Assembly (NCBI GenBank): GCA_041674185.1
Contig: JBAYWE010000004.1
Span: 186 to 64,185, forward strand
From: Minisyncoccota bacterium
Lineage (GTDB): Bacteria; Patescibacteriota; Minisyncoccia; UBA6257; JAGOQP01
Direction: 5' to 3'
DNA length: 64,000 nucleotides
Shown here piece by piece: positions 1,861 to 53,232 of this stretch (position 1 is the first letter of the stretch; each line of letters starts with the position of its first letter). Under the pieces are notes generated by a model. That model was not told the DNA's origin, did no database searches, and worked only from the letters and a program-made list of their open reading frames with translations. The translations under genes and the position numbers were made by a program.

Positions 1861-1885
1861 AAAACCGTCTATATGGCGGTTTTTA
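1861..1885 (+). terminator. Rho-independent terminator hairpin after tRNA-Arg (AACCGTC-TATAT-GGCGGTT followed by a T run)
   Basis: Stem-loop flanked by an A run upstream and T run downstream, possibly bidirectional. Confidence 0.55.
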
Positions 1886-2023
1886 AATTAAAAACCCGAG
1901 AACGCAAACTGCTTTGCGTTCGTGAGGATTCGAACGACGGAGTGTATGCGAACAGCTGTGAGCATAACGAGTCGGTGGTCAACCCGAGTTGAGCGACGGC
2001 GAAACGAGAGGTGAGACCGAATC

Positions 2024-2043
2024 CCTGCCTACCGGCAGGCAGG
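2024..2043. repeat. 20-bp near-palindrome CCTGCCTACCGGCAGGCAGG (copy 1 of 4)
   Basis: Identical or near-identical 20-mers at 2024, 35556, 51376 and 51966. Here it interrupts the duplicated tRNA-Arg 3' end. Confidence 0.9.
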
Positions 2044-2140
2044 CCTCCGGGTGTACAACTATAAAAATACATCATTTTCTTAAATGGTGTGTTTTTATAG
2101 TTAGCATATCGTAGATTCGAAGGGTATTCGAAAAGTATCC

Positions 2141-3367: not shown

Positions 3368-3439
3368 GCGGGTATCGTATAGTGGCTATTATGCGTCCTT
3401 GCCAAGGACGAGACGGCGGTCCGATTCCGCTTACCCGCT
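3368..3439 (+). tRNA. tRNA-Gly (anticodon GCC)
   Basis: Acceptor GCGGGTA/TACCCGC, anticodon stem CGTCC/GGACG with loop TTGCCAA, discriminator U73 typical of Gly. The T-loop is the unusual TCCGATT. No encoded CCA. Confidence 0.75.
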
Positions 3440-3638
3440 CAAGATGAAAAATTACCCTTCTGTTTAAAGAGGGGTGATTTTTTATTTATGTATGCGGGTA
3501 AAACAAATAAACTGCTTTATTTGTGTGCGAAATCGGACGACGGAGCATATGCGAGTAGCAACGAGCATGGTGAGTCGGTGGTTAGACAAACTTTTGCGAC
3601 GGCAAAAGTTTAGTCGAGACCGATTCCGCTTACCCGCT
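3440..3638 (+). repeat. tRNA-3'-end-linked structured element, copy B (attached to tRNA-Gly)
   Basis: A terminator-like hairpin comes first. The left arm GCGGGTAA [ACAAATAAA-CTGC-TTTATTTGT] GT GCGAAATCGGAC equals the reverse complement of the tRNA-Gly 3' end with the CTGC hairpin inserted after nt 8. The core is homologous to copy A (CGACGGAGCATATGCGA..GAGCATGGTGAGTCGGTGGT..GCGACGGCAAAAG). The right arm GACCGATTCCGCTTACCCGCT is a direct copy of the tRNA-Gly 3' end. Confidence 0.75.
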
Positions 3639-3701
3639 CAAGATATAAAAATATAAAACACCCCCAAAGGGGGTGTTTTATATTTTCCTTATTTTTTATC
3701 A

Positions 3702-30452: not shown

Positions 30453-30566
30453 AGCAAGTCCTCCTTAATTAATTTATAAATGTTCGTTGGTGCGGGGGTT
30501 TTGTATATTTTTATATACCGTCCGCGTGTTTATACGCTACCACGTTTCTATAAAAAAACAATATAA

Positions 30567-30605
30567 TAAAACATTCTCACATTCTTGAGAATGTGAGAAT
30601 GTTTT
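30567..30605. terminator. Perfect 15-bp palindromic hairpin terminator (AACATTCTCACATTC-TTGA-GAATGTGAGAATGTT)
   Basis: Downstream of the glycosyltransferase gene, flanked by A/T runs. Confidence 0.65.
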
Positions 30606-30659
30606 GTGATGAATTATTATCAAAACTCTAGTTTCTGATCCCTATCCCCTAATTCCTCC

Positions 30660-35494: not shown

Positions 35495-35719
35495 CGCAAA
35501 CATTAAATCCTAATCCACCGGGAATTTCACATCGCACTTCGTGCTCTTTAGAAACCCTGCCTACCGGTAGGCAGGCCTCGGTTTCTAACATCCTTCGAAT
35601 TGTTTTCCTACACGGGGAACTACAAGTTCCCCGACCCCCTCCGATTCAAATCCCGCGCGAGATCTTTCATCATATAAAATAAAAATATCCCTACTAGCGT
35701 AAGGATATTTTTATTTGTG
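35495..35719 (-). repeat. tRNA-3'-end-linked element, divergent copy E (attached to tRNA-Glu)
   Basis: Read on the minus strand after tRNA-Glu. A terminator hairpin (AAAATATCC...GGATATTTT) comes first. CGGGATTTGAA follows, which is the reverse complement of the tRNA-Glu T-arm. The 20-bp palindrome sits inside the inverted repeats TTAGAAACC/GGTTTCTAA. The degenerate duplicate of the tRNA-Glu 3' end (AAATTCCCGGTGG) closes the copy. Confidence 0.5.
35556..35575. repeat. 20-bp perfect palindrome CCTGCCTACCGGTAGGCAGG (copy 2 of 4)
   Basis: Exact palindrome flanked by the extra inverted repeats TTAGAAACC/GGTTTCTAA. Confidence 0.9.
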
Positions 35720-37049: not shown

Positions 37050-37148
37050 TACGTTTTGTATTCAAGCATTATTTAATTATATTTTCAACTCCCGCGCTAC
37101 ACATTCTCACATTCTCAAGAGTGCGAAAATGTTCTTTTGTTATTTTTG

Positions 37149-37220
37149 AGGCCACGGGCGGAGTTGAACCGCCGCATAGAGATTTTGCAGATCTCTGCCT
37201 TACCGCTTGGCTACGTGGCC
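37149..37220 (-). tRNA. tRNA-Cys (anticodon GCA)
   Basis: Acceptor GGCCACG/CGTGGCC, anticodon stem GAGAT/ATCTC with loop CTGCAAA, T-arm GGCGG-TTCAACT-CCGCC, discriminator U. Confidence 0.8.
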
Positions 37221-48712: not shown

Positions 48713-49378
48713 CTAGTCAGGTTTTTGTTTTTCTACCTTGGCAATATGCTTTTTAATATTCTGTGCATTTATGACTAAATCAGCCGACTCTCTGAATTTT
48801 GTCAAAATATATCCACCCTTCACTATAATCACTTTTTTACCTTTTCGTTTTAAGTAATTATTTAAATACACAAAATCAGCATCTCCAGAGAAAATACAGA
48901 AAGTATTATAGTGTTCAAGCATCTTTAGCGCATCTACAGAAATCTCTACATCAAAATTTGATTTTCTGATTTCTATAAATTTTTTGCCATCTATATCTGT
49001 TTTAACATATTTATCAGGAATATATTCGCCCGTCTCAAAATAATGCCTAATTTTTTGAATGTCTTTAGTCATTACATCTCTTTTGCCAAAAACTTTTCGC
49101 ATAACATAGGTAAAACTGAGAGACTTTTGATTTTTAGGATTTTCTCCATAGTAAATTCTCGCCCTCTCACTAAAAATATCCAAAAATGATTTAAGTTTTT
49201 CTAAGTCTATTGATAACTTCTCATCGGGAGCGAGGAGTTTATTCTCCCAGTCTTGATTGTCATTTTGAAACCACTTATTTACGTTTGAGAAATCGACAAA
49301 AGTGAAAATCTTCCCGTAATCTTCGGTGATCTGTAGCTCATCTTTGATAAACTTCTTTTTTAGGTCTTGCAAATCCAT
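48713..49378 (-). CDS. NYN-domain (LabA/PIN-like) predicted ribonuclease embedded between hsdM and hsdS
   Basis: NYN signature segments (IFTFVDFSNV..., FDVEISVDA..., CIFSGDADFVYL..., KKVIIV). Confidence 0.55.
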   Translation of the reverse strand: MDLQDLKKKFIKDELQITEDYGKIFTFVDFSNVNKWFQNDNQDWENKLLAPDEKLSIDLEKLKSFLDIFSERARIYYGENPKNQKSLSFTYVMRKVFGKRDVMTKDIQKIRHYFETGEYIPDKYVKTDIDGKKFIEIRKSNFDVEISVDALKMLEHYNTFCIFSGDADFVYLNNYLKRKGKKVIIVKGGYILTKFRESADLVINAQNIKKHIAKVEKQKPD

Positions 49379-49382
49379 ATAT

Positions 49383-51182
49383 TTAAAATCCTAACTCTTT
49401 TAGATTTTTCTCAATATCTTTTTCTAATTCGCGGCCTTTTGTGAATGCTCCCCGCAATTCTTCTGAAAATTTTATCATCTTTTCTTCAAATGTAACTCCA
49501 TCATCCTCAACGTCTGCAAGTCCAACATAGCGTCCAGGAGTTAATGTATATCCATTTTTCTGTATTTCTTTTAAAGTTGCTGATTTACAAAAACCTGAAA
49601 TATTTTTATATTCCCCAACCTCTTGTTCACCCCGCCACGCACGAACGGTGTCCGCAATTTTTTGAATTTGTTCTTTATTGAAAATCACTTGTTTACGAGA
49701 AATTTGTTCAAAAGTATCTCGTGCATCAATGAATAATGTTTCTCCAGTGCGTTTACGAAAACGATCACCATTTTTGTTTCTAGCCAAAAACCAAAGGGAT
49801 ACAGGAAGCGAAACATTATAGAAAAGTTTTGATGGACATGAAATAATAACGTCAACCATATCTGCTTCAATAAGTTTTTGTCTTAGTTCACCCTCTTTAC
49901 CGGATACAGCAAGGGCACCATTTGGCATAACGAATCCAGCATTACCATTTGGTGCTAAATGGTGAGCAAAATGTTGTACCCACATGAAATTCGCATTGCC
50001 ACTCGGTGGAGTGCCCAATGTTATGCGCGGATCATTATCGGCAAGTTTGGATGGTTCCCAATCTGCATTAAATGGAGGATTAGCAATAACAAAATCTGCC
50101 TGCAAATGAGGGAATTTGTCTTGATAATAAGTATTTCCTAATTCAATTTTTCCAGATAGACCACGAATTGCAAGGTTCATTTTACAAAGTCGCAAGGTTG
50201 TTGGATTGCTTTCTTGTCCGTTAATTGCAAGTCGTGACGAATCCTGATGATGATCTCGCAAGAACTCACCCATGGATACAAACATTCCTCCACTTCCACA
50301 TGCGGGATCAAGTACTCGAGCATTTTCATATGGTTCAAGAATCTCTACTAAAAGTTTAACAATAGATCGTGGGGTAAAAAATTCTCCTCCACGCTTACCT
50401 TCGGATGAAGCAAATTGACCAAGAAAATATTCATAGATACGTCCGAGGATATCCTTCTCTCTATCAAAGTTGTGATCAAACGAAATACGAGAAAAGATAT
50501 TTATAAGTTCACCAATTACTGCATGATCAAGAGTTGTTCTTGTATAAATTTTAGGAAGCACTCCTTCAAGTTCTGTTAAGTTATCACTCTCAATATAATC
50601 CATTGCCTTATCAAGAATCTGTCCAATATCTGATTGCATTGTTTTTGTCTGCAAATATTCCCAACGAGATTTTTCGGGGACATAAAATACTCCAGCGCTT
50701 TTATAAAAATCTTTTGTCTCAAGAATTTGAGCTCGAGCTTTTTCATCTGCAACATAAAATTCTTCATTTTTAGGATCATGAGTGAGCTCATCAAGTTTCT
50801 CGCGTCTTTTATAGAATGCATCTGAAATATATTTTAAGAAGAGAAGACCAAGTACAATATTTTTATACTCGGAAACATCAATGTTACCACGAAGCTTATC
50901 TGCTGCGGCCCAAAGTTCTTTTTCAAAATCAAGATCTTTATGATGATTTTTTTCCAAAACCTTCTTTGTTGTCTTCTTTTGTTCGCCTCTAATGCGTTCT
51001 TGGAGTTCGGGGGGGAGAGTTGACCTAGGAATGAGGTAGTTGCGACCCATTTTCTGAGCCGGTATCTTTCCTTCGGAAATCTGTTTATGCACCGCAATAC
51101 GGCTTATCCCGAGCATTTTTGCCATCTCTGCAGAGGTTATGAACTGTGATTTGTGTGTTTCCATGATCTTATAATAGCACAA
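49383..51182 (-). CDS. hsdM: Type I restriction-modification methyltransferase subunit (HsdM) with N-terminal helix-turn-helix extension
   Basis: N-terminal excisionase/MerR-like HTH (SAEMAKMLGISRIAVHKQISEGKIPAQKMGRNYLIP), HsdM N-domain, SAM-binding motif I (LDPACGSGGM), motif IV NPPF. Confidence 0.85.
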   Translation of the reverse strand: MCYYKIMETHKSQFITSAEMAKMLGISRIAVHKQISEGKIPAQKMGRNYLIPRSTLPPELQERIRGEQKKTTKKVLEKNHHKDLDFEKELWAAADKLRGNIDVSEYKNIVLGLLFLKYISDAFYKRREKLDELTHDPKNEEFYVADEKARAQILETKDFYKSAGVFYVPEKSRWEYLQTKTMQSDIGQILDKAMDYIESDNLTELEGVLPKIYTRTTLDHAVIGELINIFSRISFDHNFDREKDILGRIYEYFLGQFASSEGKRGGEFFTPRSIVKLLVEILEPYENARVLDPACGSGGMFVSMGEFLRDHHQDSSRLAINGQESNPTTLRLCKMNLAIRGLSGKIELGNTYYQDKFPHLQADFVIANPPFNADWEPSKLADNDPRITLGTPPSGNANFMWVQHFAHHLAPNGNAGFVMPNGALAVSGKEGELRQKLIEADMVDVIISCPSKLFYNVSLPVSLWFLARNKNGDRFRKRTGETLFIDARDTFEQISRKQVIFNKEQIQKIADTVRAWRGEQEVGEYKNISGFCKSATLKEIQKNGYTLTPGRYVGLADVEDDGVTFEEKMIKFSEELRGAFTKGRELEKDIEKNLKELGF

Positions 51183-51375
51183 ATTAATTTGGAATGCAAG
51201 TTAACATAGGTTAACCACACTATGGTAAAAGATCACTGTTATATGTGTATATTATTCAATACTCAATAATGATTGTTCTATAAACATAGGAGGAGAGTTC
51301 GCCCGCGAGTCTTTTTGTTGCAACAAAAAGCTCTGGGCACCAACTCGCTGTACTCACAGCTGTTCGCACATGCTC

Positions 51376-51395
51376 CCTGCCTACCGGCAGGCAGG
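51376..51395. repeat. 20-bp near-palindrome CCTGCCTACCGGCAGGCAGG (copy 3 of 4)
   Basis: Lies between copy C of the tRNA-linked element and an extra partial core copy (51318..51370). Confidence 0.9.
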
Positions 51396-51421
51396 CGTCA
51401 TTCGAATCATCTAAATAGAAA

Positions 51422-51599
51422 GGAGATTCGGCTACAAGTCGTTTTATCTTCCGCTAAAACGCTCGCAGCCCGCCCCTCGTGGCACTCCTTACCACCTCGT
51501 TCGTCGCGCAACACTACGGTCTTCGAATCCCCCACGTGGATGAAGCAGTTCATTCACTCTCTCCGCAAACAAAATACCCCCTTACGGGGTACTTGTTTG
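51422..51599 (-). repeat. tRNA-3'-end-linked structured element, copy C (attached to tRNA-Ser)
   Basis: Read on the minus strand after tRNA-Ser. A long hairpin comes first. The left arm CGGAGAGAG [GAATGAA-CTGC-TTCATCC] ACGTGGGGGATTCGAAGACC is the reverse complement of the tRNA-Ser 3' end with the CTGC hairpin inserted. The core is homologous to A and B (GACCGTAGTGTTGCG...GAGGTGGT...GCGAGCG...). The right arm is GTAGCCGAATCTCC. A second partial core copy (GAGCATGTGCGAACAGCTGTGAGTACAGCGAGTTGGTG) lies beyond the palindrome. Confidence 0.65.
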
Positions 51600-51686
51600 C
51601 GGAGAGGGGGAGATTCGAACTCCCGGGGGCGGTTAAGCCCCACAGCTTTAGCAAAGCTGCACAATAGACCACTCTGACACCTCTCC
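51600..51686 (-). tRNA. tRNA-Ser (anticodon GCT)
   Basis: Acceptor GGAGAGG/CCTCTCC, anticodon stem CAGCT/AGCTG with loop TTGCTAA, long variable arm GGGGCTTAACCGCCCCC, T-arm GGGAG-TTCGAAT-CTCCC, discriminator G. Confidence 0.8.
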
Positions 51687-51691
51687 ATATT

Positions 51692-51937
51692 TTATTGTAA
51701 ATTATACTTTCTCTTTATCTCTTCACGTTTATATCCTTTTTTGTATTCTTTTTCAAGGCAACGAGCATCTTCTTCTGTTTTACATTCTATATATTCTAAA
51801 AGTGTTAATGGTATTCTATTTTTTAATGACTGAGTGTGTCCAGCGTTATGCTCTAAAATTCTTCGCGAGACATTATTTGTCTTACCAATGTATATCCCGC
51901 AATCTTTCTCACTTTTTAAAATATATACAAAGTACAT
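51692..51937 (-). CDS. Standalone GIY-YIG nuclease-domain protein (YhbQ/UPF0213-like, 81 aa)
   Basis: YFVYILKSEKDCGIYIGKTNNVSRRILEHN matches the GIY-YIG catalytic motif (GIY ... YIG ... R ... E ... N). There is no DNA-binding extension. Confidence 0.65.
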   Translation of the reverse strand: MYFVYILKSEKDCGIYIGKTNNVSRRILEHNAGHTQSLKNRIPLTLLEYIECKTEEDARCLEKEYKKGYKREEIKRKYNLQ

Positions 51938-51951
51938 AGTTATATGTAATT

Positions 51952-52006
51952 CTGCACAATAGACCCCTGCCTACCGGCAGGCAGGACTCTGACACCTCTC
52001 CATATT
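51952..52006 (-). pseudogene. Duplicated 5' fragment of tRNA-Ser (nt -5 to +30) interrupted by the 20-bp palindrome
   Basis: AATATGGAGAGGTGTCAGAGT [CCTGCCTGCCGGTAGGCAGG] GGTCTATTGTGCAG. It matches 51657..51691 exactly outside the insertion, then diverges into the GIY-YIG gene. Confidence 0.8.
51966..51985. repeat. 20-bp near-palindrome CCTGCCTACCGGCAGGCAGG (copy 4 of 4)
   Basis: Inserted between positions 16 and 17 (D-loop) of the duplicated tRNA-Ser 5' fragment. Confidence 0.9.
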
Positions 52007-52023
52007 AACTTGCTCACATAATA

Positions 52024-53232
52024 TTGATAAATAGAAGAAAAATCAACTGGGTGATTTTAATTACTCTTATTTTGATATATGATATTTATATTATGAGTTT
52101 ATCTAAAAAACAGATACCCCTTGCGGTTTTTATTATCATATTTGTCGTTATTATCGGTATCGCTATTATTATTGCTACCGGTGGAGTTCAAACCTCATCT
52201 CCCTCTGATCCCTTAACCGCAACGACAACTATTTTCGGTATACCGGTACCCAATCAAATCAGTGTTCCGACTCCACAGAAAGCAAATCAATATATTACCT
52301 CTGATTCTCAACCCCCCGCCACTGGATATACTCCTCCACAAAACATACCCATAGAAACTCAAATCGTAAAAGCACAAGCTGCTTTTACCGTTCTCTACCC
52401 CACAAACAATCAAACACTTATTAATGATCCTACCTATAATACACCCCTCGCCATCATACGATGGTCCTCAAAATTTGCGAGTATTAAAAACGTAAATCTT
52501 GATTTACAAGATCAGAACGGAACTTTTATAAAAACCATCGCTACCCATACTGCAAATTCCGGCACCTATGTTTGGTTCTCTGGTGCCGAAATTCCAAATG
52601 GAACCTATCGCATACGCATACACGCACCTATTATCGGTACCACCATAGATGAAGGAATAAGCGATCTATTTTCCATTACCTCTCCCGCATCTTTGCAACA
52701 TCCTGATACCTCATGGCACACCTATATTAACCCTCAATATAAATTCTCATTTATCTATCCCGGAGATTTCTTGTTCTCAACTTTCAATACGCAATATCCA
52801 GGAACAACTATTGTAAAAATATCTCCTAAATTAAATTATTATATTCATGCAAATGATATCGAAACGGTAGATGCATCAGACATACTTATTTCAGCACGAC
52901 CCGCTGGTTCAAGTGCCTGTCCGAGTGTTGCAGAAACAACCGGTGCTCAAGGATACGTCTATGGCAACATGGACACCATACAAGGAAAATATGTTCAGTT
53001 TACCAAAGTGAAAAGAAATGATTTTGGTATTAATAATCAACATGCTCGCTATGTAGATTATTTTACCCTGCATAATGGCGTCTGTTATTCATTCCGATTC
53101 ACCGCTCACGTCGTTCGTCTCCCCTTCAGCACGAATGCGCTCTATCAAGCTCCTGATAAACTCGAAAACGATATATCACGCATGACCGCAAACGTTGAAC
53201 AAATGGTACTTTCTCTTGAATTTCTGCAATAA
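52024..53232 (+). CDS. Membrane-anchored / secreted hypothetical protein (402 aa)
   Basis: N-terminal TM, Thr/Pro-rich linker, beta-rich C-terminal domains. Confidence 0.45.
   Translation: MINRRKINWVILITLILIYDIYIMSLSKKQIPLAVFIIIFVVIIGIAIIIATGGVQTSSPSDPLTATTTIFGIPVPNQISVPTPQKANQYITSDSQPPATGYTPPQNIPIETQIVKAQAAFTVLYPTNNQTLINDPTYNTPLAIIRWSSKFASIKNVNLDLQDQNGTFIKTIATHTANSGTYVWFSGAEIPNGTYRIRIHAPIIGTTIDEGISDLFSITSPASLQHPDTSWHTYINPQYKFSFIYPGDFLFSTFNTQYPGTTIVKISPKLNYYIHANDIETVDASDILISARPAGSSACPSVAETTGAQGYVYGNMDTIQGKYVQFTKVKRNDFGINNQHARYVDYFTLHNGVCYSFRFTAHVVRLPFSTNALYQAPDKLENDISRMTANVEQMVLSLEFLQ

What the first reader, a model, noticed from the sequence alone, without database searches (positions are those of the whole stretch)
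51300..52011. The tRNA-Ser locus is a composite of partial duplications around a small nuclease gene
**What the sequence shows**, reading the minus strand:
- a 35-nt duplicate of tRNA-Ser positions -5 to +30, with the 20-bp palindrome inserted in its D-loop
- a standalone 81-aa GIY-YIG nuclease ORF
- the intact tRNA-Ser
- a hairpin
- element copy C
- the 20-bp palindrome again
- a second partial copy of the element core

The GIY-YIG gene is thus flanked by perfect 35-bp direct repeats derived from the tRNA 5' half.

**Inference.** The flanking repeats are the signature expected if a cassette inserted into tRNA-Ser at position 30 while carrying its own tRNA 5' segment, or if repair copying followed a nuclease cut. 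With the 3' element on the other side, tRNA-Ser is bracketed on both sides by tRNA-derived repeat modules. This hints that the small GIY-YIG nuclease is functionally linked to the element family, for example as its mobility or processing nuclease.
Basis: partly seen in the sequence, partly recalled or inferred. Interest (0 to 1): 0.75.

Follow-up and report, generated by a model that had tools for sequence, protein, structure and literature searches.

The report
Selfish nuclease cassette beside tRNA-Ser
A tiny nuclease gene sits between a broken, hairpin-carrying copy of the front of a serine tRNA gene and the intact gene; the same layout recurs at many tRNA genes in many uncultured bacteria, so it looks like an undescribed family of small selfish DNA elements.

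Summary
On the minus strand lie:
- a 5' tRNA-Ser fragment (-5..+30), split after nt 16 by a 20-bp palindrome (P);
- an 81-aa GIY-YIG gene;
- the intact tRNA-Ser(GCT);
- a terminator-like hairpin;
- two tRNA-derived 3' elements, one of which carries P.

This is not a local accident.
- **Conserved layout:** all 17 evaluable relatives of the gene (55-86% identity) have the same layout, with P at the same D-loop site.
- **Other tRNAs:** more distant relatives sit the same way at tRNAs for at least 14 amino acids. Some are in mirror image and some are bracketed by inverted repeats.
- **Empty site:** a syntenic relative (L211) has a 98% identical tRNA-Ser with no fragment, no P, no gene and no 3' element.
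- **The gene:** it is under purifying selection (dN/dS about 0.1) and belongs to the UPF0213/YhbQ-Slx1 branch of GIY-YIG nucleases.
- **The palindrome:** P is a clean 20-bp insertion that nests in its own loop. It occurs in many phyla, in cultured Bacteroidota and in viral contigs.

**Best reading:** a selfish cassette that entered with a duplication of its target and is probably read from the tRNA promoter. The proposed link between the nuclease and the 3' elements rests on the shared P alone. The mechanism is inferred, not shown.

The parts
52018..52046 (-). Promoter-like site (TTGATT-17-TATTAT) just upstream of the 5' fragment. It lies in the landmark sequence shared with L210 and L211.
   Evidence: 9/12 consensus match, not proof of function. 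The landmark is conserved.
51986..52006 (-). Left arm of the pseudo-fragment, tRNA-Ser -5..+16 (AATATGGAGAGGTGTCAGAGT).
   Evidence: 21/21 identical to 51671-51691.
51966..51985 (.). 20-bp palindrome P (minus-strand reading CCTGCCTGCCGGTAGGCAGG), inserted between tRNA nt 16 and 17 of the fragment.
   Evidence: It is at the same position in all 17 evaluable relatives.
51952..51965 (-). Right arm of the pseudo-fragment, tRNA-Ser +17..+30 (GGTCTATTGTGCAG).
   Evidence: 14/14 identical to 51657-51670.
51938..51951 (-). 14-nt spacer between the fragment and the start codon.
   Evidence: It is 10/14 identical in L002.
51692..51937 (-). GIY-YIG nuclease gene, 81 aa, UPF0213/YhbQ-Slx1 branch.
   Evidence: dN/dS is 0.07-0.12.
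51657..51691 (-). Second copy of the 35-nt direct repeat (5 nt of leader plus tRNA nt 1-30).
51599..51686 (-). Intact tRNA-Ser(GCT).
   Evidence: It is 86/88 identical to the gene at the empty site L211.
51567..51598 (-). Terminator-like hairpin 3' of the tRNA.
   Evidence: stem flagged at 51575-51591.
51417..51566 (-). 3' element copy C1. It holds the reverse complement of the tRNA-Ser 3' end split by hairpin H1 (loop CUGC), a diverged core, and a degenerate copy of the tRNA 3' end.
51396..51416 (-). Start of partial element copy C2 (..GATGATTCGAATGACG).
51376..51395 (.). Palindrome P inserted into the core of C2.
   Evidence: A and D have no insert at this point.
51289..51375 (-). Rest of C2: core GAGCATGTGCGAACAGCTGTGAGTACAGCGAGTTGGTG, a hairpin, and a degenerate copy of the tRNA 3' end.
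   Evidence: I2; nhmmer E 4.8e-16.
1885..2058 (+). Element A, 3' of tRNA-Arg. P (2024-2043) is inserted in its copy of the tRNA-Arg 3' end.
3491..3645 (+). Element D, 3' of tRNA-Gly, without P. It ends in a 34-nt copy of the tRNA-Gly T-loop to trailer.
   Evidence: (D7).
35495..35672 (-). Element B, 3' of tRNA-Glu. P (35556-35575) lies in the loop of an internal hairpin. The counterpart in L154 lacks P.

Best explanation
The locus holds a member of a large, apparently undescribed family of selfish mini-cassettes. Each consists of one ~80-aa GIY-YIG nuclease gene of the UPF0213/YhbQ-Slx1 (structure-specific) branch, lodged in the 5' leader of a tRNA gene.

**Shown**
- Relative to a cassette-free relative, the cassette sits between the upstream landmark and tRNA-Ser.
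- It is flanked by a 35-nt duplication of tRNA -5..+30, so the downstream tRNA stays intact.
- The gene is under purifying selection and keeps the catalytic residues.
- The same architecture recurs at many tRNAs.

**Inferred**
1. The cassette entered by a break in the 5' part of the tRNA gene, followed by repair or insertion that duplicated the target. This would be homing-like, or transposon-like with a long target duplication.
2. It is transcribed from the tRNA promoter as fragment-P-ORF-tRNA, and RNase P releases the tRNA.
3. Recombination between the repeats can delete the cassette (giving the empty site) or multiply the fragment (as in L002, L134, L210).

**The palindrome**
P is a separate, clean 20-bp insertion that lands in hairpin loops: the D-loop of the dispensable fragment, its own loop, and loops of the 3' elements. 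My preferred but unproven view is that P, or the cruciform or hairpin it forms, is the cognate structure of this nuclease clade. The relation would resemble that of REP sequences to their RAYT gene.
For: **Empty site**
- L211 is syntenic: its neighbouring protein is 64% identical, it has the same landmark 'tttatcaatattatgtgag', and its tRNA-Ser is 86/88 identical. It has no fragment, P, ORF or 3' element.

**Recurrence**
- 5/5 fetched homologue loci, and all 17 evaluable members of the Ser clade, have fragment + P + ORF + tRNA-Ser.
- 39 of 80 metagenomic relatives lie directly upstream of a same-strand tRNA: Ser, Trp, Cys, Ala, Val, Glu, Gln, Gly, Asn, Asp, Leu, Pro. Each has a 5' pseudo-fragment of that same tRNA carrying GC-rich hairpins.
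- The layout also occurs at Arg, Lys, Leu and Met among the palindrome loci.
- Mirror arrangement, tRNA-ORF-3' fragment: L144 and L156.
- The Ala/Val clade is bracketed by inverted repeats and has a 10-bp duplication of tRNA nt 1-10.
- 29/77 relatives are bracketed by inverted repeats of at least 12 nt, against a mean of 8.2 in shuffles.
- Nuclease clades track the tRNA target, and a Ser-GGA/TGA clade is nested within Ser-GCT, which indicates target switching.
- Decayed older fragments (L210) and doubled fragments (L002, L134) show repeated events.

**The gene**
- dN/dS is 0.07-0.12.
- Invariant residues include Y5, Y16, R26, H30 and E62.
- Closest solved relatives are UPF0213 proteins and the Slx1 nuclease domain.
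- The family is large: 20,598 cluster representatives at E <= 1e-3.

**Expression**
- A promoter-like site lies just upstream of the fragment.

**The palindrome P**
- 4 copies in the window against 0 expected.
- At least 120 genome stretches in many phyla, and 48 viral stretches.
- Nested P-in-P at C^CGG.
- P lies 28-81 nt upstream of the ATG in every member of the Ser clade, and in the single viral contig with a relative.
Against: - **No mobility or cleavage was observed.** The cassette-bearing allele still contains an intact target tRNA, so the classical self-immunity of a homing endonuclease is not explained.
- **No DNA-binding domain.** The protein has only 81 aa, so sequence-specific recognition of a tRNA gene is hard to picture.
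- **Old arrangement.** dS exceeds 1 even for the closest pair. This fits long vertical inheritance as well as repeated homing.
- **The fragment tracks its own tRNA.** Yet P stays at one D-loop position. A simple 'cassette at nt 30 plus later P hit' model does not predict this.
- **The P-nuclease link is weak.** Most P copies have no such gene within 8 kb: about 5 of about 130 genome copies and 1 of 48 viral stretches do. The link is therefore statistical, and whole genomes could not be checked.
- **RNA-level signal.** UUCG-type loops in the hairpins of other clades point to a role at the RNA level rather than the DNA level.
Confidence: 0.55

Rival explanations
1. It is a fixed host operon rather than a mobile element. 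A housekeeping UPF0213-type nuclease is co-transcribed with tRNA-Ser. The 5' fragment with its hairpin would be a functional RNA leader, for example a 5' stabiliser or a decoy that modulates tRNA maturation or translation of the ORF.
For: - The layout is conserved in all 17 evaluable relatives despite saturated synonymous sites.
- The fragment and P are 100% identical between L001 and L002, while the spacer and upstream DNA diverge.
- Hairpins in other clades often have UUCG or GAAG loops, which are typical of RNA.
- G.U-compatible variants of P are common: 55 of 148.
- A promoter-like site lies upstream of the fragment.
Against: - An empty site exists in a close syntenic relative.
- The same layout occurs at tRNAs for at least 14 amino acids, and in mirror image.
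- Relatives bracketed by inverted repeats sit between unrelated genes.
- Trails of decayed fragments are present.
- Only 1 of 8 tRNAs in the window has the cassette.
Confidence: 0.2
2. The palindrome is the primary actor. P (and other GC-rich hairpins) insert into tRNA-gene loops, and the partial tRNA duplications are the surviving repair products. The nuclease gene would be a passenger, or a host factor that processes such hairpins (Slx1-like), rather than the agent that moves the cassette.
For: - ORF-less units of fragment+P directly before an intact tRNA exist: L015 Leu, L053 Val, L030, L135 second site, and the second unit in L002.
- P is much more widespread than the gene.
- P nests in its own loop and sits in hairpin loops (B versus L154).
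- P lies in the D-arm of every pseudo-fragment seen.
Against: - The ORF-less units can equally arise by deletion of the ORF between repeats.
- No enzyme for P insertion is identified.
- Nuclease clades without P have the same fragment-ORF-tRNA layout with other hairpins.
- Most P copies have no flanking duplication at all.
Confidence: 0.17
3. It is a remnant of a conventional tRNA-targeting element: an integrase-type island with att duplication, or a degenerate group I intron carrying a homing endonuclease in the tRNA.
For: - tRNA genes are classic integration sites.
- A type I R-M methylase and a NYN gene lie just beyond the 3' elements in low-GC DNA.
- Group I introns are reported in Patescibacteria tRNA genes (PMC13011429).
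Against: - There is no integrase nearby.
- The duplication is of the 5' end and encloses only 274 bp.
- There is no distal copy of the tRNA 3' end in the window.
- No intron or any other Rfam family was found at E <= 10.
- The tRNA is not interrupted.
Confidence: 0.05
4. It is a chance similarity or an assembly or library artefact, with the palindrome as an adaptor-like sequence.
For: P appears in very different taxa and at very different GC contents, which at first sight resembles a contaminant.
Against: - P lies at orthologous positions in independent assemblies from different sources, with diverged flanks.
- It is present in cultured isolates.
- None was expected in shuffles.
- Decayed copies exist.
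Confidence: 0.01

Closest known systems
Free-standing GIY-YIG homing endonucleases, e.g. phage T4 SegB in the tRNA gene cluster (PMC2330249)
   Same: - A GIY-YIG nuclease gene lodged next to tRNA genes.
- Present in some relatives and absent in others.
- Expected to spread by break and repair, with co-conversion of flanks.
   Different: - SegB-type enzymes are about 200 aa or more, with a DNA-binding domain, and belong to the I-TevI-like branch.
- This protein is a bare 81-aa catalytic domain of the UPF0213/Slx1 branch. I-TevI scores only E 0.06.
- Seg genes are not flanked by a duplicated piece of the target, nor by a palindrome.
UPF0213/YhbQ proteins (PDB 1zg2, 1ywl) and the nuclease domain of Slx1
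   Same: - Best sequence and fold matches.
- Same size and same catalytic residues.
- Slx1 cuts branched and stem-loop DNA, which suggests a structure-specific activity here.
   Different: - No tRNA-linked, fragment-flanked or palindrome-flanked context is described for YhbQ-type genes (own knowledge; nothing found).
- Slx1 carries a RING domain and needs Slx4.
REP sequences and their RAYT transposase genes (REPtrons; own knowledge)
   Same: Short GC-rich palindromes are dispersed through a genome. The same palindrome flanks a nuclease-type gene that is far rarer in the stretches examined. P flanks the gene on one side here and on both sides in L002 and L134.
   Different: - RAYTs are HUH/Y1 enzymes, not GIY-YIG.
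- REPs are family- or species-specific, whereas P is identical across phyla.
- P inserts into hairpin loops, including its own.
Palindromic GC clusters and double-hairpin elements of fungal mitochondria (PMC4478555)
   Same: - Short GC-rich palindromes spreading in AT-rich genomes.
- Merged or nested copies.
- Exchange between species.
- No coding capacity.
   Different: - They are organellar, longer (about 30-60 nt) and lineage-specific.
- No associated nuclease gene is established.
Mobile endonuclease ORFs that carry a replacement end of the host gene (e.g. the atp6 insertion in Allomyces mitochondria; own knowledge)
   Same: The insertion leaves a displaced pseudo-copy of the gene end beside a restored functional gene, with an endonuclease ORF in between.
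   Different: Those cases concern protein genes and C-terminal ends in mitochondria. Here it is the 5' end of a bacterial tRNA gene.
Integrase-type islands at tRNA genes
   Same: Partial tRNA duplications flank the inserted DNA, most like the 3' elements A and D with their ~34-nt repeats.
   Different: - There is no integrase.
- The inserts are only 150-300 bp.
- The nuclease cassette duplicates the 5' end, not the 3' end.

Membership tests
GIY-YIG nuclease superfamily (Pfam PF01541) | Profile match above the curated threshold. | tested here: met
   E 3.6e-13, 50 bits against a cut-off of 22.6, covering residues 1-78.
GIY-YIG nuclease superfamily (Pfam PF01541) | Conserved catalytic residues: Tyr of GIY, Tyr-x-Gly of YIG, Arg, and the metal-binding Glu. 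| tested here: met
   Y5, Y16, G18, R26, H30 and E62 are invariant or nearly so in 25 homologues.
GIY-YIG nuclease superfamily (Pfam PF01541) | Three-stranded sheet flanked by helices. | tested here: met
   AF2 model with pLDDT 94.6 and beta-beta-alpha-alpha-beta-alpha-alpha order. Foldseek hits are GIY-YIG domains only.
UPF0213/YhbQ-Slx1 branch | Closest sequence and fold relatives are UPF0213 proteins and the Slx1 nuclease domain, not I-TevI or UvrC. | tested here: met
   Sequence profile: 1zg2 E 5.7e-13, 1ywl 5.1e-12, Slx1 1.8e-5, UvrC 0.03, I-TevI 0.06. Fold: Slx1 TM 0.70.
UPF0213/YhbQ-Slx1 branch | Structure-specific cleavage of branched or hairpin DNA. | not testable with these tools
   Needs biochemistry.
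Homing endonuclease gene (free-standing) | Occupied and empty alleles of the same site exist among relatives. | tested here: met
   L211 is the empty site; the window, L002 and L210 are occupied. This is between species, not within a population.
Homing endonuclease gene (free-standing) | The enzyme recognises and cuts the cassette-free allele, and the occupied allele is immune. | not testable with these tools
   No assay is available. Note that the occupied allele still holds an intact tRNA.
Homing endonuclease gene (free-standing) | A DNA-binding module for a long target. | tested here: not met
   The 81 aa equal the catalytic domain alone.
REP/RAYT-like system | A dispersed short palindrome that also flanks the gene. 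| tested here: met
   P occurs 4 times in 64 kb and at more than 120 genome stretches. It lies upstream of the gene in 17/17 and on both sides in L002 and L134.
REP/RAYT-like system | An HUH/Y1 transposase. | tested here: not met
   The gene is GIY-YIG.
REP/RAYT-like system | Genome-wide co-occurrence of the palindrome and the gene. | not tested
   Whole genomes could not be scanned. Only 8-kb stretches were available.
TIR transposon / MITE | Terminal inverted repeats and a short target-site duplication. | tested here: inconclusive
   Not present at this locus: the best inverted repeat is 8 nt, at background level. Present in relatives (29/77; 10-bp duplication in L189, L190, L192). The 35-nt direct repeat here is atypically long.
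Group I intron with endonuclease in a tRNA | A ribozyme core, with the tRNA interrupted. | tested here: not met
   No intron family at E <= 10. The tRNA is continuous.
Integrase-type tRNA island | An integrase gene, and a 3'-end att repeat at the far border. | tested here: not met
   No integrase among the neighbours. No distal copy of the tRNA 3' end.

The most novel reading that the evidence does not exclude
The 20-bp palindrome and the UPF0213/Slx1-type mini-nuclease may form a new kind of mobile system, analogous to REP/RAYT but chemically unrelated. In it, a structure-specific GIY-YIG nuclease would cut hairpin or cruciform loops: tRNA-gene D, anticodon and T loops, terminators, and the palindrome itself. 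It would thereby drive clean insertion of its cognate hairpin and of its own gene. Different nuclease clades would have different cognate hairpins, and the P variant would have spread across many bacterial phyla and their viruses. The tRNA-flanking 3' elements could be non-coding members of the same system.
Probability: 0.25. Interest if true: 0.9.

Novelty: new variant of a known kind. Interest (0 to 1): 0.74.

Why it matters
- **A possible role for an uncharacterised family.** This would assign a role to a very large family of ~80-aa GIY-YIG proteins. The family has 20,598 cluster representatives and is usually annotated only as 'GIY-YIG nuclease family protein' or mis-annotated as UvrC.
- **A harmless way into an essential gene.** It shows how a selfish gene can settle inside an essential tRNA gene without killing it. 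The insertion duplicates the target's 5' end, and the cassette then probably relies on the tRNA promoter and on RNase P.
- **tRNA pseudo-fragments explained.** It accounts for the pseudo-fragments and GC-rich hairpins that clutter tRNA loci in the small genomes of Patescibacteria and confuse annotation.
- **A testable palindrome.** It exposes a 20-bp palindrome with identical sequence in many phyla, whose insertion mechanism is unknown. If the nuclease proves to be its partner, it would be a compact, hairpin-loop-specific DNA-cutting and insertion system that can be tested directly.

Tried and rejected
1. **tmRNA-like or other known RNA for the 3' elements.** The motif GGATTCGAACGACGG recalls the 5' part of tmRNA. 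However, no Rfam family, tmRNA included, matches A, D, C1 or C2 at E <= 5-10, and ARAGORN finds no tmRNA. The motif is better read as the reverse complement of the tRNA T-loop/acceptor.
2. **A far-end att copy of the tRNA-Ser 3' end**, which would mark an integrated island. None was found within 3 mismatches.
3. **Phage origin.** There is no tblastn match for the protein and no blastn match for element D in 50,697 GenBank phage records. Only one IMG/VR contig encodes a relative.
4. **Target-site duplication as a rule for P.** Flanking direct repeats of at least 7 nt occur in 5.5% of 199 copies, against 0.9% of random sites. They are enriched, but a minority, so I do not claim a TSD.
5. **A flank preference for P.** There is no clear consensus beyond depletion of A next to the palindrome.
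6. **More copies of the 3' element core in the fetched loci.** An nhmmer profile of the A/D/C2 core found none. Related units were found only through their duplicated tRNA 3' ends.
7. **Literature.** The exact palindrome, GIY-YIG + tRNA + Patescibacteria, YhbQ/UPF0213/COG2827, and GIY-YIG + inverted repeats + tRNA gave nothing describing this architecture.
8. **A second GIY-YIG paralogue in the window.** None was found.
Full report
**1. What is in the sequence**

The window comes from a Candidatus Paceibacterota (Patescibacteria/CPR) genome, according to the source name of the identical protein.

On the minus strand, ARAGORN finds tRNA-Ser(GCT) at 51599-51686. Directly upstream is an 81-aa ORF at 51692-51937. 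Its stop codon abuts the 5 nt that precede the tRNA.

Upstream of the ORF, after a 14-nt spacer, lies AATATGGAGAGGTGTCAGAGT-[CCTGCCTGCCGGTAGGCAGG]-GGTCTATTGTGCAG (52006..51952). Without the bracketed 20 nt, this is a perfect 35-nt copy of tRNA positions -5..+30 (51691..51657).

The 20-mer, called P here, occurs four times in the window. None was found in 100 shuffles, even allowing two mismatches.

Rfam's tRNA model stays below its threshold on this tRNA. A syntenic relative nevertheless carries an 86/88 identical gene, so I treat the tRNA as functional.

**2. The ORF is a real gene of the UPF0213/YhbQ-Slx1 branch**

- It matches Pfam GIY-YIG at E 3.6e-13.
- A profile of 25 homologues hits the UPF0213 proteins BH0048 (E 5.7e-13) and EF2693 first. 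Next come the Slx1 nuclease domain (1.8e-5), UvrC (0.03) and I-TevI (0.06).
- The AlphaFold model (pLDDT 94.6) gives the same order by fold, with Slx1 at TM 0.70.
- The catalytic Tyr, Tyr-x-Gly, Arg, His and Glu are invariant.
- dN/dS against four orthologues is 0.07-0.12, and synonymous sites are already saturated (dS 1.1 for the closest pair).
- The family is very large: 20,598 cluster representatives at E <= 1e-3, nearly all 80-130 aa.
- There is no paralogue in the window.

**3. The arrangement is conserved and recurrent**

*Close relatives.*
- All five homologue loci fetched by exact protein look-up (65-100% identity) have the gene 5-94 nt upstream of tRNA-Ser(GCT).
- Upstream of each gene is a 5' fragment that matches that genome's own tRNA-Ser, including lineage-specific changes such as GGAGGCG in L008.
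- P sits after nt 16 in every case.

*Metagenome scan.* This returned 80 more relatives.
- 39 lie directly upstream of, or overlap, a same-strand tRNA: Ser-GCT/GGA/TGA, Trp, Cys, Ala, Val, Glu, Gln, Gly, Asn, Asp, Leu, Pro.
- Every evaluable member at 55% identity or more (12 loci, plus the five above) has fragment + P.
- More distant clades have a fragment of their own tRNA interrupted in the D-loop or anticodon loop by other GC-rich hairpins, often with UUCG or GAAG loops.
- Among loci found through P alone, the same layout occurs at tRNA-Arg (a Bacteroidetes MAG), tRNA-Lys (WWE3), tRNA-Leu (Saccharibacteria) and tRNA-Met.

*Variants.*
- A mirror version exists: tRNA-Cys, terminator, ORF, 3' pseudo-fragment (L144, L156).
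- In the Ala/Val clade the ORF is bracketed by 19-bp inverted repeats (CCCCTCAC...) and by a 10-bp duplication of tRNA nt 1-10.
- In clades with no tRNA nearby, the ORF is bracketed by inverted repeats of the type CCCCCACACCAATT/AATTGGTGTGGGGG. Of 77 relatives, 29 have an inverted repeat of at least 12 nt, against a mean of 8.2 in shuffles.
- A neighbour-joining tree shows that nuclease clades follow the tRNA target. A Ser-GGA/TGA clade is nested inside Ser-GCT, which indicates target switching.

**4. An empty site exists**

The gene on the other side of the cassette (window 52093-53229) has three orthologues.

*L211 (64% identity).*
- It keeps the landmark 'tttatcaatattatgtgag'.
- About 165 nt further on it has an 86/88 identical tRNA-Ser(GCT).
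- It has no fragment, no P, no ORF and no 3' element.

*L210 (69% identity).*
- It has an older fragment with decayed hairpins, including a decayed P at the same D-loop site.
- That fragment is followed by a fresh fragment + P at the contig end.

*L002 and L134.*
- Both carry two fragment + P units, one on each side of the ORF.

These states are what repeated insertion, unequal exchange and deletion between the repeats would produce.

**5. The palindrome**

P is always a clean 20-bp insert. This holds relative to the tRNA (nt 16/17), relative to elements A and D (for the C2 copy), relative to the tRNA-Arg 3' end (in element A), and relative to the L154 counterpart of element B, where it sits in a hairpin loop.

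*Distribution.*
- These span Patescibacteria, Bacteroidota (including cultured Winogradskyella, Flagellimonas, Olivibacter, Flavivirga and Longitalea), Omnitrophota, Planctomycetota, Nitrospirota and proteobacterial MAGs.
- 48 stretches were found in IMG/VR.

*Behaviour.*
- Several copies are nested, P within P at C^CGG: L029, L035, L041, L068, L074, L119, L135.
- Central-pair variants are G-C 91, G.T/A.C 55 and A-T 2, out of 148.
- Most copies have no target duplication: 5.5% have one of at least 7 nt, against 0.9% at random sites.

*Link to the nuclease.*
- Only about 5 of about 130 genome copies have a relative of the nuclease within the 8-kb stretch. In each of the four with a called tRNA right beside the gene (L034, L061, L102, L127), P lies upstream of the ORF in a tRNA fragment.
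- The one viral contig that encodes a relative shows the same layout.
- ORF-less units of fragment + P followed by the tRNA also exist: L015, L053, L030 and a second site in L135.

No Rfam family and no paper in the library matches P.

**6. The 3' elements**

Elements A (tRNA-Arg), D (tRNA-Gly), B (tRNA-Glu) and C1/C2 (tRNA-Ser) follow a terminator-like hairpin. Each contains, in order:
- the reverse complement of the last ~18 nt of its own tRNA, split by a hairpin H1;
- a core, GACGGAGnnTATGCGAACAGC..GAGCAT..GAGTCGGTGG in A, D and C2;
- a direct copy of the tRNA from the T-loop into the 3' trailer, 34 nt in D.

The consensus fold is a long rod. H1 has an invariant CUGC loop, and 7 of its 9 pairs show compensatory changes in four copies.

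Similar units occur in L063, L154, L158 and L200. They are found at tRNAs with and without the nuclease gene, and the empty site lacks them.

I could not assign them to any known family. Their only demonstrated link to the nuclease is that P has landed in both.

**7. How it most likely works**

*Shown:*
- insertion relative to an empty allele;
- a 35-nt target duplication that leaves the tRNA intact;
- a selected, catalytically complete nuclease gene;
- a recurrent architecture at many tRNAs.

*Inferred:*
- The cassette arrived by a break in the 5' part of the tRNA gene plus repair or insertion that duplicated the target.
- A promoter-like site (52046-52018) sits just upstream of the fragment. 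This suggests one transcript, fragment-P-ORF-tRNA, from which RNase P frees the tRNA.
- The repeats allow deletion and amplification.

Because the enzyme is a bare Slx1-like domain, I favour recognition of structure (hairpin or cruciform loops of tRNA genes and of P) over recognition of sequence. I see P as the cognate hairpin of this clade. This last step is the weakest.

*Rival explanations:*
- a fixed host operon with an RNA leader (0.2);
- a palindrome-driven process in which the gene is a passenger or a processing factor (0.17);
- remnants of an integrase island or a group I intron (0.05).

**8. Comparison with known systems, and novelty**

The closest known systems are:
- free-standing GIY-YIG homing endonucleases such as T4 SegB in a tRNA cluster (PMC2330249);
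- UPF0213/YhbQ and Slx1, as protein relatives;
- REP/RAYT systems;
- mitochondrial GC clusters (PMC4478555).

Each shares some features and fails others; the membership table gives the details.

Six literature searches found no description of tRNA-leader GIY-YIG cassettes with pseudo-tRNA fragments, or of this palindrome. The library does not include most subscription journals, so absence there is not proof of novelty.

I rate it a new variant of a known kind: a selfish endonuclease cassette combined with a mobile palindrome. There is a 0.25 chance that it is a distinct hairpin-loop-targeting mobile system.

Noticed in passing
window 1885-2058 (+), 3491-3645 (+), 35495-35672 (-), 51289-51566 (-): A family of structured ~150-nt elements lies 3' of tRNA-Arg, -Gly, -Glu and -Ser. 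Each has a terminator, an inverted copy of the tRNA's own 3' end split by a covarying hairpin with a CUGC loop, a conserved core, and a ~34-nt direct copy of the tRNA 3' end. There is no Rfam family and no phage match. Similar units occur in L063, L154, L158 and L200.
   Followed up: partly
window 2024-2043, 35556-35575, 51376-51395, 51966-51985; loci L010-L129, L213-L260: The 20-bp palindrome CCTGCCTRCCGGYAGGCAGG has an identical sequence in many bacterial phyla, in cultured Bacteroidota and in 48 IMG/VR stretches. It appears mostly as a solo clean insertion, and sometimes nested in its own loop at C^CGG.
   Followed up: partly
L152, L153, L161, L163, L165, L196, L197, L207, L209 and others: Relatives of the nuclease gene that are not next to a tRNA are bracketed by inverted repeats of the type CCCCCACACCAATT / AATTGGTGTGGGGG. 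L152 and L153 are orthologous sites and show a compensatory change in both arms. A solo hairpin of the same type lies upstream in L159.
   Followed up: partly
window 48713-51182 (-): A type I R-M methylase (HsdM with an N-terminal HTH_17) and a NYN-domain gene lie directly beyond the tRNA-Ser 3' elements, in DNA with GC 0.29-0.35. The closest relative L002 has different genes at this position. This is probably an island insertion at this tRNA. No distal copy of the tRNA 3' end was found.
   Followed up: partly
window 30556-30610 and 37101-37147: A second palindromic repeat family, AACATTCTCACATTCTTGAGAATGTGAGAATGTT. One copy lies directly 3' of tRNA-Cys (37148-37220, -).
   Followed up: no
window 51599-51686 (-): This tRNA-Ser(GCT) scores below Rfam's tRNA gathering threshold, although ARAGORN calls it. 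The D-stem pair 10-25 reads U.U. The same sequence is conserved in L002 and L211.
   Followed up: partly
L261 800-920 (IMGVR_UViG_3300035537_000177): In this viral contig, the tRNA downstream of the fragment-P-nuclease unit runs normally to the anticodon loop and then continues with GC-rich structured sequence. ARAGORN does not call it. This may be a group I intron of the kind reported for Patescibacteria tRNA genes (PMC13011429).
   Followed up: no
window 51657-51691 / 51952-52006, 3421-3454 / 3620-3653, about 1833-1865 / 2016-2068; L002 3235-3270: The duplications around tRNA-linked inserts in this lineage are all about 33-35 nt: 35 for the nuclease cassette, 34 for element D, about 33 for element A, and 34 for the second event in L002. 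This hints at one common mechanism with a fixed spacing.
   Followed up: no
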